Shown here piece by piece: positions 4,276 to 7,206 of a stretch of 32,000 nt of DNA (positions within the stretch are counted from its first letter, which is position 1; every line of letters starts with the position of its first letter). The translations under genes and the position numbers were made by a program. This DNA is from Planctomycetales bacterium. GTDB taxonomy: Bacteria; 4484-113; JAFGCY01. Location: assembly GCA_022646745.1 (NCBI GenBank), contig CP060262.1, forward strand, positions 1,950,001-1,982,000, read 5' to 3'. Under the pieces are notes generated by a model that saw only the letters and a program-made list of their open reading frames with translations, ran no database searches and was not told where the DNA came from.

Positions 4276-7206
4276 ATGGCCGAGAAGCTCAAAGACACCA
4301 CCGTCCCAAACCCACCGACGGCAGACCTGCTCGCTACCGTCGGGCTCAAGCCTGAGGAGTATGCGGAGGCCTGCCGCAAGCTCGGCCGCCTGCCAAACAT
4401 CGTGGAGATGGGCATCATCGGCGCGATGTGGAGCGAGCACTGCTGCTACAAGTCCAGCAAGATCCACCTGAAGACCTTCCCCGTCACCGGCAAGCGCGTG
4501 CTGCAGGGGCCGGGAGAGCAGGCCGGTGTGCTGGACCTCGGCAATGACTACGCCCTCGTATTCAAGATCGAATCACATAACCACCCGAGCGCGGTCGAGC
4601 CCTTCCAGGGTGCCGCGACGGGAGTGGGCGGCATCATCCGCGACATCTTCGCGATGGGGGCCCGTCCGCTGGCGCTCTTGGACAGCCTGCGCTTCGGCAA
4701 CACCTACCCGGTGGAAGCGGTCGGCAACCCCGAGGCGGACAAGGCCGTTGATGAGCAGCCGCAGGAAGCGGCGGACGGCAGCGGCGACAAGCTGAACATC
4801 CCCTGGGGCGACAGCCCCGTGCCCTTCGTGTGCACCGTCTCCTGGATGACCACGATGCGCCAGCAGCTCTTCGAGCGTGGCCCCGAGGCGCGCGCGGCCG
4901 TCAAGGCCATCCGCGAGATGCACACGGGCGATGTGCACGTGCTGGCCTACTGCGTGCTGCCGGACCAGATCCAGCTTGCGCTGTACCTGGAGAACGGGCG
5001 CGAGGAGGAGGCCGAGGCCGCCGTCGCCGCACTGAAGGAGAAGCTCGCCGAGGTGGTGGCCCCGCAGACCCAGGGCAAGCCGCCCTGGGACAGCTTCGTG
5101 ATGCTGCACCCGCGCCACAGCGGCAGCGAGCTGATGGAGGCGATCCACCTGCTGGAGTTCGCCCCGGTCACGCGCCAGAAGGTGGCGCAGGTCAGCGACT
5201 ACAAGTACGTCAGCCAGGTCTGGCGCTACGGCGTGCCCTGGCTGGATGACGAGACTGACAACACTGAGGCCCGCGAGCTGCCCTACTGTGCCGGTGTGAA
5301 CGATAAGCAGGCTGCGCGCAGCCGCTACCTTGTCAACGGGGTGGTGGAGGGCATCGCGCACTATGGCAACTGCATCGGGATCCCGACCATCGGCGGCGAG
5401 CTGGTGTTCGACCCGAGCTACACCAGCAACTGCCTTGTCAACGCGATGTGCGTCGGCGTTGTCCGCAAGGACCGCATCCACAAGGCGCGCGCGGACGGGC
5501 CGGGCAATGTGGCAATGATCGTCGGTGCGCGCACCGGCCGAGACGGTGTGCAGGGCGCGACCTTCTCCAGCGTGGAGCTGGCGGAGGACGTGGCCGAGAG
5601 CCGCCCCGCCGTGCAGGTGGGCGACCCCTTCATGGAAAAGCTGCTGCTGGAGGCCACGCTCGAGATCCTCGACATGCCGGGGCTCGTCGGCATCCAGGAC
5701 TTCGGCGCCGCCGGCCTGACCTGCTCGTCAGTGGAGATGACCGCCAAGAGCGGCACAGGCATGCGGCTTGACCTGGACGCTGTGCCGCAGCGAGCGAAGG
5801 ACCTGAGCGCCTACGAGATGATGCTCTCCGAAAGCCAGGAGCGCATGATGATCATCGTGGAGAAGGGCAGTGAGGACAGCTTCCGCGAGGTGTTCTCCCG
5901 CTGGGGCCTGACCGCGGTGGACTGCGGCGAGATCATCGGTGAGCAGCGCATCGAGGTGCTGCATGACGGGGCAGTCGTTGCCAACCTGCCGAACCGCCCG
6001 CTGGCGGATGAGGGCCCGGAGTATGACCGCCCGCATGAGGCACCGGCCAGCTGGAAGAACCGCCACCTGCTGGATGACCGCGACATCGCCGCCGCACTTG
6101 AAAGGATAAACAAGCTGCCCGTTGCCACAGAACTGGCCGGGCACAGCCTGCCCGCGCCGGGCAGCGACTTCGAGGACATCCTGCGCCGCCTGCTGATGCA
6201 CCCGAGCGTGGCCGACAAGTGGCCGGTGTACCAGCGCTACGACTGGAGCGTGCGCACCAACACGCTGCTCGGCCCGCAGGGCAGCGACGCGGCCGTGATC
6301 CGCATCAAGGAGACCGGCCAGGGCGTCGCGATGTGCACCGATGGCAACGGCCGCGCGGTCTCGCTGGACCCGCGCATCGGTGCCGCGCAGTGCGTGCTGG
6401 AGGCGGCGCGCAACATCGTGGCCAGTGGCGCGGAGCCGCTCGGGATCACGAACAACCTGAATTTCGGCAACCCGGAGAAGCCGGACCGGATGTGGCAGTT
6501 CGTGGAGAGCATCGGCGGCATCGGCGATGCTCTGCGCAAGCTGGACCTGCCGGTGACCGGTGGCAACGTCAGCCTCTACAACGAAAGCGGCGGCCGCGGC
6601 ATCCTGCCGACGCCGGTGATCGGGATGGTCGGGCTGCTGGAGAAGGCCGAGCAGGCGATCCCCAGCCGCTGCACCGACAGCGGGCTTGAGCTGTTCGTGC
6701 TCGGTACACACCATGCGCGCCTCGATGCCAGCCTGCTGATGTATGACATCGCGCGGCTGCGCAGCGGCATGCTGGAGGAGCCGGACTACAAGCAGTTCAT
6801 CTCCTGCATGAACTTCATCCTGCACGCCGCCGGCGAGGGTGCGATCCGCGCCTGCCATGACGTGTCGGACGGCGGGCTGCTGGTGGCGCTCGTCGAGATG
6901 CTGGCCGGGGCGCAGGTGGATGTCGCCCCGCTGCTTGCCGAAGGGTATGATATGGGGGACCATAACCGGCTGGCCACGCTGTTCGCCGAGGATGGCAACC
7001 GCTGGCTGCTGGCGGTCGGACCGGAAAGGAAGAGCTGGATCCGCACGGCTGCGCTGCACTACCAGGTGCCGCTCACGCCGCTGGGACGCTCGGTGGATGG
7101 AAGGCTCACCGTCAGCGGTGGTGACGAGGAATGGTTTGGCTGCGACTGGGACGTACTGGAGACATGTCGCCGGTACGGTCTGCAGGCGGCACTGTCAGGT
7201 GACTGA
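4276..7206 (+). CDS. purL: Phosphoribosylformylglycinamidine synthase subunit PurL (FGAM synthase II) with a large internal insertion
   Basis: The ATG at 4276 is preceded by GAGGA. PurL motifs are present: [74 protein letters not shown] and MLSESQERM. The protein is 976 aa, against roughly 740 aa for typical small PurL. The excess lies at nt 4699-5316. Confidence 0.9.
   Translation: [976 protein letters not shown]

What the first reader, a model, noticed from the sequence alone, without database searches (positions are those of the whole stretch)
4699..5316. In-frame ~205-aa insertion in PurL that reads like a catalytically dead REP-associated tyrosine transposase (HUH/Y1) domain
PurL core motifs are intact on both sides: …[11 protein letters not shown] | insertion | [28 protein letters not shown]…. 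In the small PurL proteins I recall (Bacillus, Thermotoga) only about 5-10 residues separate SLRFG from the AGIAxYGN motif, and the protein is about 740 aa against 976 aa here. The inserted segment reads [19 protein letters not shown]…[20 protein letters not shown]…[45 protein letters not shown]. This follows the RAYT/IS200-like Y1 transposase pattern as I recall it, from the first strand (hhT.vT..R..lF) through h.AWVVMPDHhHhLh.L and W(Q)..(Y/F).(D/E)H to (R)Yh..NPhR..LV..h.DYP.S. The HUH histidines are replaced by Q-I-Q, and the catalytic Tyr position is not Tyr ([10 protein letters not shown]). Acidic low-complexity linkers flank the segment. Its GC and codon style look the same as the rest of purL. 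It therefore looks like an old, domesticated domain insertion into a surface loop rather than an IS disruption. I do not know of a transposase-fold domain embedded in a purine-biosynthesis enzyme. REP-like hairpins lie about 800 bp upstream (see separate finding).
Basis: partly seen in the sequence, partly recalled or inferred. Interest (0 to 1): 0.8.

Follow-up and report, generated by a model that had tools for sequence, protein, structure and literature searches.

The report
Dead transposase domain inside PurL enzyme
In an uncultured bacterial lineage, the purine-biosynthesis enzyme PurL carries in one surface loop a complete but catalytically dead copy of a REP-associated tyrosine transposase, inherited with the enzyme and kept under purifying selection; this is a rare bacterial case of a transposase becoming a domain of a housekeeping enzyme.

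Summary
purL (window 4276-7206, 976 aa) has 217 residues between the DSLRFG and GIAHYGN motifs, where Bacillus-type PurL has 16. The extra segment has four parts: a conserved short stalk, a disordered acidic linker, a 150-aa folded domain and a second linker.

Three kinds of evidence show the domain is homologous to RAYT/Y1 (HUH) transposases:
- All 30 family members hit NCBIfam REP_Tyr_transpos (best E 1e-13).
- hhalign against free-standing Y1 transposases gives 99.1% probability.
- An AlphaFold model built only from PurL inserts (pLDDT 92) has E. coli TnpAREP (4ER8) as its top Foldseek hit, and the top 30 hits are all Y1 transposases.

Five of the six TnpAREP active-site residues are replaced: H59, H61, Y115, N119 and H123 become Q231, Q233, L292, A296 and R300. 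The sixth, E161, lies beyond the alignment. Eight of the nine REP-hairpin-binding residues are also gone.

The insert occurs in at least 31 PurL clusters with 63-91% core identity. It co-diverges with the core (r 0.90), and its dN/dS of 0.16-0.30 is close to the core's. It was assembled independently several times, so it is not an artefact.

Its function is unknown. The most likely role is a non-catalytic structural or protein-docking module. I found no published description.

The parts
4276..7206 (+). purL CDS (976 aa plus stop), small-PurL type FGAM synthase subunit
   Evidence: ORF. NF002290 882 bits and TIGR01736 816 bits, with Pfam FGAR-AT_linker, AIRS and AIRS_C. The AF2 model has TM 0.93 (target-normalised) to Thermus PurL 3viu.
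4276..4698 (+). PurL residues 1-141: N-terminal linker and first part of the first AIRS N-domain, ending in the strand ...[10 protein letters not shown]
   Evidence: Alignments. dN/dS is 0.05-0.07.
4699..4788 (+). Residues 142-171: a conserved stalk segment ([10 protein letters not shown]) followed by a variable acidic, disordered linker
   Evidence: Family alignment. pLDDT is below 50 at residues 157-169, with isolated beta-bridges at 146 and 149. dN/dS is 0.15-0.77.
4789..5241 (+). Residues 172-322: RAYT-like (Y1/HUH-fold) domain with topology beta1-alpha-beta2-beta3-alpha-beta4-alpha; it spans essentially a whole RAYT ORF
   Evidence: Secondary structure: E184-192, H202-215, E220-228, E231-238, H243-265, E276-280, H283-299. 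dN/dS is 0.16-0.30.
4966..4974 (+). Codons Q231-I232-Q233, which occupy the HUH motif position (4er8 H59-M60-H61)
   Evidence: HMM and hhalign alignments; mapping. Across the family the first position is Q/G/S/F/A/T and the third is Q/L/V/G/S/I.
5149..5151 (+). Codon L292, at the position of the catalytic Tyr115 of TnpAREP (R in 24 of 30 family members)
   Evidence: The active-site residue list comes from PMC3479197.
5242..5313 (+). Residues 323-346: a short acidic linker, then the conserved return stalk (ELPYCAGV) leading into the PurL helix [21 protein letters not shown]
   Evidence: pLDDT is below 50 at residues 324-330, with beta-bridges at 338 and 341.
5314..7203 (+). PurL residues 347-976: the rest of the FGAM synthase core
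   Evidence: dN/dS is 0.10-0.19.
7208..8641 (+). purF (amidophosphoribosyltransferase), immediately downstream. The purL-purF pairing is kept in distant insert-bearing relatives.
   Evidence: TIGR01134 502 bits. Synteny in L004, L005 and L009.

Best explanation
What is shown. An ancestor of this uncultured lineage captured a complete RAYT-type Y1 (HUH) transposase reading frame, in frame, in the surface loop of small PurL that follows the ...DSLRFG strand. Related PurLs also carry expansions at this loop. The PurL core stayed intact. The captured domain lost at least five of its six active-site residues, namely both HUH histidines, the nucleophilic Tyr and two further metal ligands; the sixth, E161, cannot be placed because it lies beyond the alignment. 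It also lost eight of the nine basic or polar residues that TnpAREP uses to hold the REP hairpin. It kept the RAYT fold and the fold-defining motifs (R195, Y225, P229-D230, K254, W271-D272, P297-V298, D308-Y309). It has been inherited vertically with purL under purifying selection about as strong as on the enzyme body.

What is inferred. The insert now works as an inert, folded, mildly acidic module. It is displayed on a conserved stalk (inferred to be two-stranded) and a flexible acidic tether. Its most likely role is a docking or steric element for assembly or regulation of the FGAM synthase complex (PurL with PurS, PurQ or the neighbouring PurF). It does not cut or bind DNA.
For: Homology and fold. 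The insert-only profile scores nine free-standing Y1/RAYT proteins at 12-50 bits.

Dead active site and lost hairpin patch: using the TnpAREP residue lists from PMC3479197.

Intact PurL core.

Capture of a whole RAYT ORF: NF047646 positions 15-145 of 146 are matched, and the alignment to the 156-aa P0123 runs from residue 13 to its C-terminus.

Single old acquisition: 31 clusters all have the insert at the same site, and insert and core identities correlate at r 0.90 over 435 pairs.

Selection: insert core dN/dS is 0.16-0.30, PurL body 0.10-0.19, linkers up to 0.95.

Charge: mean net charge of insert cores is -2.6 and pI is 5-7.

Loop tolerance: the nearest PurLs without the insert carry 24-44-aa, mostly acidic, expansions at the same loop.

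Not an artefact: five independent assemblies.
Against: No direct evidence for any function. I had no model coordinates or PAE, so I could not place the domain relative to the active site or to the PurS/PurQ interfaces. I could not check whether these genomes encode PurS and PurQ. Purifying selection on a domain inserted in an essential enzyme could merely reflect the cost of misfolding. K254 and R300 are invariant basic residues, so a residual ligand-binding site cannot be excluded. Alignment of the alpha-C helix, where most hairpin contacts lie, is less certain than that of the motif regions.
Confidence: 0.55

Rival explanations
1. Same origin, but the domain has no function of its own. It is an entrenched passenger: once lodged in an essential enzyme's loop, it is kept folded only because unfolding or partial deletion would damage PurL.
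For: The insert evolves faster than the core, at about 44% identity where the core is about 64%. The linkers are nearly neutral. The conserved positions are mostly the generic RAYT fold motifs. The loop tolerates unrelated expansions in other lineages.
Against: No case of loss was seen among 31 clusters spanning core divergence down to 63% identity. dN/dS is as low as for the enzyme body. The stalk residues and several residues not conserved in ordinary RAYTs (W177, W190, C226, E294, S313, W316, G319) are invariant or nearly so.
Confidence: 0.3
2. The domain still binds a structured single-stranded nucleic acid (a REP-like hairpin or an mRNA element), giving PurL a moonlighting regulatory or tethering role.
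For: The fold is that of a hairpin-binding protein. K254 (equivalent to K81 of TnpAREP) and R195, R206 and R300 are invariant.
Against: Eight of the nine TnpAREP hairpin-contact residues are replaced by D/E/G/A/P/L. The domain and its linkers are acidic. The upstream hairpin is single-copy in the window. No Rfam element was found in the window.
Confidence: 0.08
3. The resemblance is convergent: a generic ferredoxin/RRM-like alpha+beta domain that is not descended from a transposase.
For: The fold class is common. Lower Foldseek hits include HPPK and other ferredoxin-like proteins. The Pfam Y1_Tnp match is weak, at 7 of 30 members with best E 0.0075.
Against: Sequence-level profile matches occur in the right order with the right motifs: hhalign 99.1%, NF047646 30/30 with best E 1e-13, and the exhaustive phmmer search finds a free-standing RAYT-family protein at E 1.6e-6. 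The top 30 structural hits are exclusively Y1 transposases, after which E-values rise from about 3e-4 to about 2e-3.
Confidence: 0.03
4. Artefact or disruption: a recent IS/RAYT insertion, a chimeric assembly, a pseudogene, or a self-splicing element (intein).
For: None beyond the unusual length.
Against: The ORF is continuous. The architecture is identical in 31 clusters, 3 GTDB genomes and 5 independent assemblies. The insert is under purifying selection. No Pfam family of any kind, including intein (Hint) or homing-endonuclease families, matches the insert at E<=10. GC matches the host gene.
Confidence: 0.01

Closest known systems
E. coli TnpAREP / RAYT (REP-associated tyrosine transposase; PDB 4ER8; NCBIfam NF047646)
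   Same: It is the best sequence-profile hit and the best structural hit. It shares the beta-alpha-beta-beta-alpha-beta-alpha topology with helix alpha-D packed in cis. It shares the motifs R24, (W/Y)53, P57-(D/E)58, K81, W99-(E/D)100, P120-V121 and D131-(W/Y)132.
   Different: It has no HUH, no catalytic Tyr, no N119/H123 ligands and no basic hairpin-binding patch. It is acidic rather than basic. It is not a free-standing gene, and no REPs are evident. It scores 28-30 bits against the 80-bit cut-off.
IS200/IS605 TnpA Y1 transposases (Pfam PF01797; ISDra2, IS608, Sulfolobus structures)
   Same: Same superfamily fold. They take Foldseek ranks 2-30, and 7 of 30 inserts give weak PF01797 hits.
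   Different: These are obligate domain-swapped dimers with an intact HUH and Tyr, encoded in mobile IS elements (PMC3479197). The insert is more RAYT-like and is not mobile.
Free-standing HUH-less RAYT homologues (P0123, P0125; JGI name 'REP element-mobilizing transposase RayT')
   Same: Independent proteins of 156-157 aa with NQLLW or RQLHW in place of HUH and Phe in place of the Tyr. P0123 passes the NF047646 cut-off (84.7 bits) and is the only free-standing hit to the insert in the exhaustive search.
   Different: They are stand-alone genes. They are not specially close to the insert, because the HUH-intact P0127 scores as high against the insert profile. Inactivation was therefore probably independent.
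Canonical small PurL (Thermus 3VIU, Thermotoga 1VK3/3D54, Bacillus-type sequences)
   Same: All core motifs and domains are present. The TM-score is 0.93 to 3VIU, and the gene neighbours a purine-pathway gene.
   Different: Canonical PurL has 16 residues where this protein has 217.
Lineage-specific insertion domains in essential bacterial enzymes (e.g. the RNA polymerase beta/beta' insertions, PMC11515920) and domesticated transposase fusions such as eukaryotic SETMAR (own knowledge)
   Same: A folded domain is inserted in a surface loop of a conserved enzyme and inherited as a clade marker; a transposase-derived module is fused to a host enzyme.
   Different: In this case the inserted module is a prokaryotic Y1/HUH transposase that has lost both catalysis and the DNA-binding patch, and the host is a metabolic enzyme. 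I found no described precedent.

Membership tests
RAYT / TnpAREP (REP-associated tyrosine transposase) | Y1/HUH (RRM-like) fold with alpha-D packed in cis | tested here: met
   AF2 model of the insert: pLDDT 91.9. Foldseek top hit 4er8_A, E 2.9e-8, TM 0.69/0.65 over 150 columns.
RAYT / TnpAREP (REP-associated tyrosine transposase) | Score above the curated family cut-off (NF047646, 80 bits; Pfam PF01797 gathering score) | tested here: not met
   The window insert scores 28-30 bits, although the match is significant (E 5.5e-7) and spans the full profile. All 30 members match below the cut-off. No Pfam hit for the window insert.
RAYT / TnpAREP (REP-associated tyrosine transposase) | HUH metal-binding motif | tested here: not met
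   H59-M60-H61 corresponds to Q231-I232-Q233. Neither histidine position holds His in any of the 30 members.
RAYT / TnpAREP (REP-associated tyrosine transposase) | Catalytic tyrosine on helix alpha-D (Y115) and the additional ligands N119, H123 and E161 | tested here: not met
   Y115 corresponds to L292 (R in 24/30), N119 to A296 (T/A/S), and H123 to R300. E161 lies beyond the alignment.
RAYT / TnpAREP (REP-associated tyrosine transposase) | Basic surface of alpha-B/alpha-C that binds the REP hairpin | tested here: not met
   Only K81 (K254 here) of the nine contact residues is kept. Mean net charge is -2.6. This rests on sequence alignment only.
RAYT / TnpAREP (REP-associated tyrosine transposase) | Association with repeated REP/REPIN hairpins; single-copy free-standing gene | tested here: not met
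   The domain is embedded in purL. The only nearby hairpin (3433-3453) is unique in the 32-kb window. The whole genome was not available.
Small PurL (FGAM synthase subunit II) | Equivalog HMM above cut-off, with two AIRS/AIRS_C repeats and the N-terminal linker domain | tested here: met
   NF002290 scores 882 bits against a cut-off of 648. TIGR01736 scores 816 against 526. PF18072, PF00586 and PF02769 are present.
Small PurL (FGAM synthase subunit II) | PurL three-dimensional core | tested here: met
   Full-length AF2 model: pLDDT 86.9. Foldseek hit to 3viu: E 1e-61, target-normalised TM 0.93.
Small PurL (FGAM synthase subunit II) | Works with PurS and PurQ partners | not testable with these tools
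   No purS or purQ in the window or in the fetched flanks. The rest of the genomes could not be scanned.
Intein / homing element | Hint splicing domain and junction residues | tested here: not met
   No Pfam family of any kind hits the insert at E<=10. The fold is Y1 transposase.

The most novel reading that the evidence does not exclude
The dead RAYT domain has been recruited as a working part of the FGAM synthase machine, for example as a docking or gating module that contacts or replaces PurS/PurQ, or that couples PurL to PurF. That would be the first case of a prokaryotic HUH transposase exapted as an integral, functional domain of a core metabolic enzyme, and a clade-defining one.
Probability: 0.3. 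Interest if true: 0.8.

Novelty: new variant of a known kind. Interest (0 to 1): 0.62.

Why it matters
Domesticated transposases are well known in eukaryotes, and RAYTs are themselves regarded as domesticated. A whole Y1/HUH transposase frozen inside a housekeeping biosynthetic enzyme, stripped of catalysis and of its DNA-binding patch yet conserved across a deep bacterial clade, has not been described as far as I could find.

It matters in four ways:
- It documents a route by which mobile-element ORFs become protein domains in bacteria: in-frame capture in a permissive loop.
- It gives a clean synapomorphy for an uncultured lineage.
- It offers a natural experiment on what an HUH fold can do without its chemistry.
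- It is a caution for annotation pipelines. These proteins are labelled plain PurL, and surveys of Y1 transposases discard over-long 'fusions' (PMC6006769).

Tried and rejected
1. Single-sequence searches of the insert against Pfam and PDB sequences gave nothing useful. A 4-sequence profile also failed against PDB. Only the 30-sequence profile reached 4er8.

2. The first word-indexed search with the insert returned one fragment, and the later profile search again missed the PurLs. This is an index limitation, not rarity, because the full-length PurL search found 31 insert-bearing clusters.

4. REP link. There is one hairpin upstream, unique in the window, with no Rfam or tRNA features. Rejected.

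5. Remnant terminal repeats. A 22-nt imperfect inverted repeat sits exactly at the insert borders (4683-4704 / 5293-5314, 16 of 22 complementary). It is reached by 5 of 300 codon shuffles and drops to 10-15 of 22 in relatives. I treated it as chance.

6. Descent from the free-standing dead RAYTs (P0123, P0125). Not supported, because HUH-intact P0127 scores equally well against the insert profile.

7. Clade-specific signature positions in the PurL core, as a proxy for a docking surface. I found 35 scattered positions with a loose cluster at residues 815-933, which cannot be interpreted without coordinates.

8. Locating the loop relative to the PurS/PurQ interfaces from the literature. The Morar 2006 and 2008 papers are not held, and the open papers do not describe this loop.

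9. PHROGs gave no hit for the insert.

10. I considered an intein, a frameshift and a misassembly and rejected all three.
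Full report
**The observation**

The window carries one uninterrupted ORF from ATG 4276 to the stop at 7204-7206, encoding 976 aa. It is unmistakably small PurL. NCBIfam NF002290 scores 882 bits against a cut-off of 648, and Pfam finds FGAR-AT_linker, AIRS and AIRS_C. The PurL model match is split in two: its longest stretch starts at residue 345, and none of the PurL/AIRS stretches reported falls within residues 142-344.

Between the motifs DSLRFG and GIAHYGN there are 217 residues. Bacillus-type PurLs have 16 there, and the nearest relatives without the insert have 20-44. GC in the insert (0.69-0.71) is like the rest of the gene.

**Not an artefact, and not private to this contig**

- A search with the whole protein found 31 clusters at 90% identity (P0002-P0032, 56-100% identical to the query) that all carry 217-252 residues at the same site. 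The next-best PurLs do not.
- Three GTDB species-representative genomes have the insert. Their records are labelled 'UBP7 HKST-UBA03', 'bacterium AC1.30' and 'Planctomycetales bacterium Ww346'.
- P0002, 100% identical to the window protein after rounding, lies on five independently assembled contigs from ENA, Logan and NCBI.
- purL-purF synteny is kept in distant members.
- The early 'only one homologue' result was a miss of the word index, not evidence of rarity.

**Anatomy**

The family alignment and the full-length AlphaFold model (pLDDT 86.9) give five segments:

| Residues | Segment | Notes |
|---|---|---|
| 142-152 | Outgoing stalk ([10 protein letters not shown]) | Conserved |
| 153-171 | First linker | Variable, acidic, pLDDT below 50 at 157-169 |
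| 172-322 | Folded domain | beta(184-192)-alpha(202-215)-beta(220-228)-beta(231-238)-alpha(243-265)-beta(276-280)-alpha(283-299) plus a short C-terminal helix; pLDDT about 85-92 |
| 323-332 | Second linker | Acidic, pLDDT below 50 at 324-330 |
| 333-342 | Return stalk (ELPYCAGV) | Conserved; runs into the normal PurL helix [21 protein letters not shown] |

Isolated beta-bridges at 146/149 and 338/341 suggest that the two stalk segments pair. The PurL core superposes on Thermus PurL 3VIU with target-normalised TM 0.93.

**What the domain is**

- *Family profiles.* NCBIfam NF047646 (REP-associated tyrosine transposase) matches the window insert over profile positions 15-145 of 146 (E 5.5e-7 to 1.5e-6, 28-30 bits). 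It matches all 30 family members, with a best E of 1e-13. Pfam Y1_Tnp matches 7 of 30 weakly.
- *PDB sequences.* A profile of the 30 inserts has 4er8_A (E. coli TnpAREP) as best hit, E 1.6e-5, followed by the Sulfolobus and ISDra2 Y1 transposases.
- *Exhaustive search.* A phmmer search of 1.84 billion representative proteins with the window insert found PurL, a frameshifted purL fragment, a spurious repeat protein and one free-standing 156-aa protein, P0123 (E 1.6e-6). P0123 passes the NF047646 cut-off at 84.7 bits.
- *Profile against profile.* hhalign of the insert profile against seven free-standing PF01797 proteins gives 99.1% probability, E 6.5e-19, over 132 columns.
- *Reverse check.* The insert-only profile scores nine free-standing Y1/RAYT proteins at 12-50 bits.
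- *Structure.* An AlphaFold model of the insert built from an alignment containing only PurL inserts, so with no transposase sequences to bias it, has pLDDT 91.9 and pTM 0.87. Its top Foldseek PDB hit is 4er8_A (E 2.9e-8, TM 0.69/0.65, 150 columns). The first 30 hits are all IS200/IS605/RAYT transposases, and E-values rise from about 3e-4 to about 2e-3 immediately after them.

Homology to RAYT-type Y1 transposases is therefore established by sequence and by fold. The match covers essentially an entire RAYT ORF.

**The domain is dead**

The TnpAREP active site is Y115 and H59-M60-H61, plus N119, H123 and E161 (PMC3479197). Mapped through the HMM alignment:

| TnpAREP residue | Window PurL | Family (30 members) |
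|---|---|---|
| H59 | Q231 | Q/G/S/F/A/T |
| H61 | Q233 | Q/L/V/G/S/I |
| Y115 | L292 | R in 24 of 30 |
| N119 | A296 | T/A/S |
| H123 | R300 | invariant R |
| E161 | not aligned | lies beyond the alignment |

No member retains either histidine or the tyrosine.

The same paper lists nine residues that form the basic surface holding the REP hairpin: R46, R78, K81, K82, Q83, T85, H86, K91 and R97. Only K81 (K254 here) is kept. The others are D/E/G, A, A/E, variable, A/G, E/D/P, L and P/K/Q. Insert cores are mildly acidic, with mean net charge -2.6 and pI 5-7. What remains conserved is largely the fold-defining motif set shared with RAYTs: R195, Y225, P229-D230, K254, W271-D272, P297-V298 and D308-Y309. 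A handful of insert-specific invariant residues are also conserved: W177, W190, C226, E294, S313, W316 and G319.

**History**

Pairwise identities of the insert and of the PurL core correlate at r 0.90 across 435 pairs. The insert evolves somewhat faster, at about 44% identity where the core is about 64%. This fits one acquisition followed by vertical descent.

Among the four closest genomes, Nei-Gojobori dN/dS values are as follows:

| Region | dN/dS |
|---|---|
| RAYT-like core | 0.16-0.30 |
| PurL body after the insert (residues 347-976) | 0.10-0.19 |
| PurL N-terminal part (residues 1-141) | 0.00-0.07 |
| Linkers | 0.15-0.95 |

The nearest PurLs without the insert carry unrelated 24-44-aa, mostly acidic, expansions in the same loop, so the site is permissive. 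The free-standing HUH-less proteins P0123 and P0125 show that RAYTs also die as independent genes. They are not closer to the insert than HUH-intact P0127, so inactivation was probably independent.

**How it most likely works**

*Shown:* the origin, the fold, the loss of catalytic and hairpin-binding residues, and selective retention.

*Inferred:* the domain now serves as an inert folded module held on a conserved stalk with a flexible acidic tether. It most plausibly provides a docking or steric surface for assembly or regulation of the FGAM synthase complex.

I give this about 0.55. The main rival, at about 0.3, is that it is an entrenched passenger kept folded only to protect PurL. Residual nucleic-acid binding is unlikely (about 0.08), given the lost basic patch and the acidic character. 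Convergence, an intein, a recent IS hit and misassembly are effectively excluded.

I could not place the domain relative to the PurS/PurQ interfaces, because no coordinates or PAE were available and the key papers are not held. I also could not check purS or purQ in these genomes. Neither gene is in the window or in the fetched flanks.

**Comparison with the known, and novelty**

By descent the insert is a RAYT/Y1 transposase relative. It fails every functional membership criterion: the curated score, the HUH motif, the Tyr, the extra ligands, the hairpin patch, REP association and free-standing gene status. The host is an ordinary small PurL.

Searches of 8 million papers found no description of a transposase-fold insert in PurL. 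The large Y1 survey explicitly discarded over-long 'fusion' proteins (PMC6006769). Source annotations, where given, call these proteins PurL or FGAM synthase, with no mention of an extra domain.

I rate it a new variant of a known kind: transposase domestication combined with a lineage-specific insertion domain. It is surprising to specialists, but its function is not yet known. Interest 0.62.

Noticed in passing
window 3478-4173 (gene 3677-4093, minus strand; inverted repeats 3631-3665 / 4126-4160): A low-GC (0.44-0.49) gene for a GxxExxY protein (TIGR04256, E 1.5e-36) is bracketed by 35-nt inverted repeats that are 97% complementary. The roughly 700-bp block is missing from the 98.9%-identical contig L005 and from L001, but it is present upstream of purL in L002 and L003. 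This looks like a small mobile or deletable cassette.
   Followed up: partly
window 3313-3368 and 3433-3453: There is a purine-rich tandem array with a 14-nt period (AGCAGAGAGCAGAG...) and a perfect 10-bp hairpin (GGATGCGGTA-A-TACCGCATCC). The hairpin is unique in the window, so there is no sign that these are REP elements.
   Followed up: partly
P0123 (locus L007 855-1325) and P0125 (locus L008 633-1106): These are free-standing RAYT-family proteins of 156-157 aa that have themselves lost the HUH motif (NQLLW, RQLHW) and carry Phe for the catalytic Tyr. P0123 still passes the NCBIfam RAYT cut-off, and JGI names P0125 'RayT'. Catalytically dead stand-alone RAYTs therefore exist and are annotated as transposases.
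   Followed up: partly
PurL loop after LRFG in P0033-P0046 (equivalent to window 4699-5316): The nearest PurLs without the RAYT-like domain carry 20-44-residue, mostly acidic, expansions at the same loop (e.g. LTAHDETELDDADEERR). This loop is therefore an insertion hot spot in several lineages.
   Followed up: no
window 4683-4704 and 5293-5314: A 22-nt imperfect inverted repeat (16/22 complementary) lies exactly at the two borders of the insert. It is reached by 5 of 300 codon shuffles and is weaker (10-15/22) in relatives, so it is probably chance rather than a relic of terminal hairpins.
   Followed up: yes
P0122 (174 aa, metagenome fragment): A purL fragment from another member of the clade reads through the C-terminal half of the RAYT-like domain and then shifts frame after ...PYCPGVTAEQA. 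This is probably a sequencing or assembly frameshift in that contig.
   Followed up: no
tool behaviour: The word-indexed protein search did not return the insert-bearing PurLs when queried with the insert alone or with its profile, although they are in the database. Few hits from that tool should not be read as rarity.
   Followed up: yes
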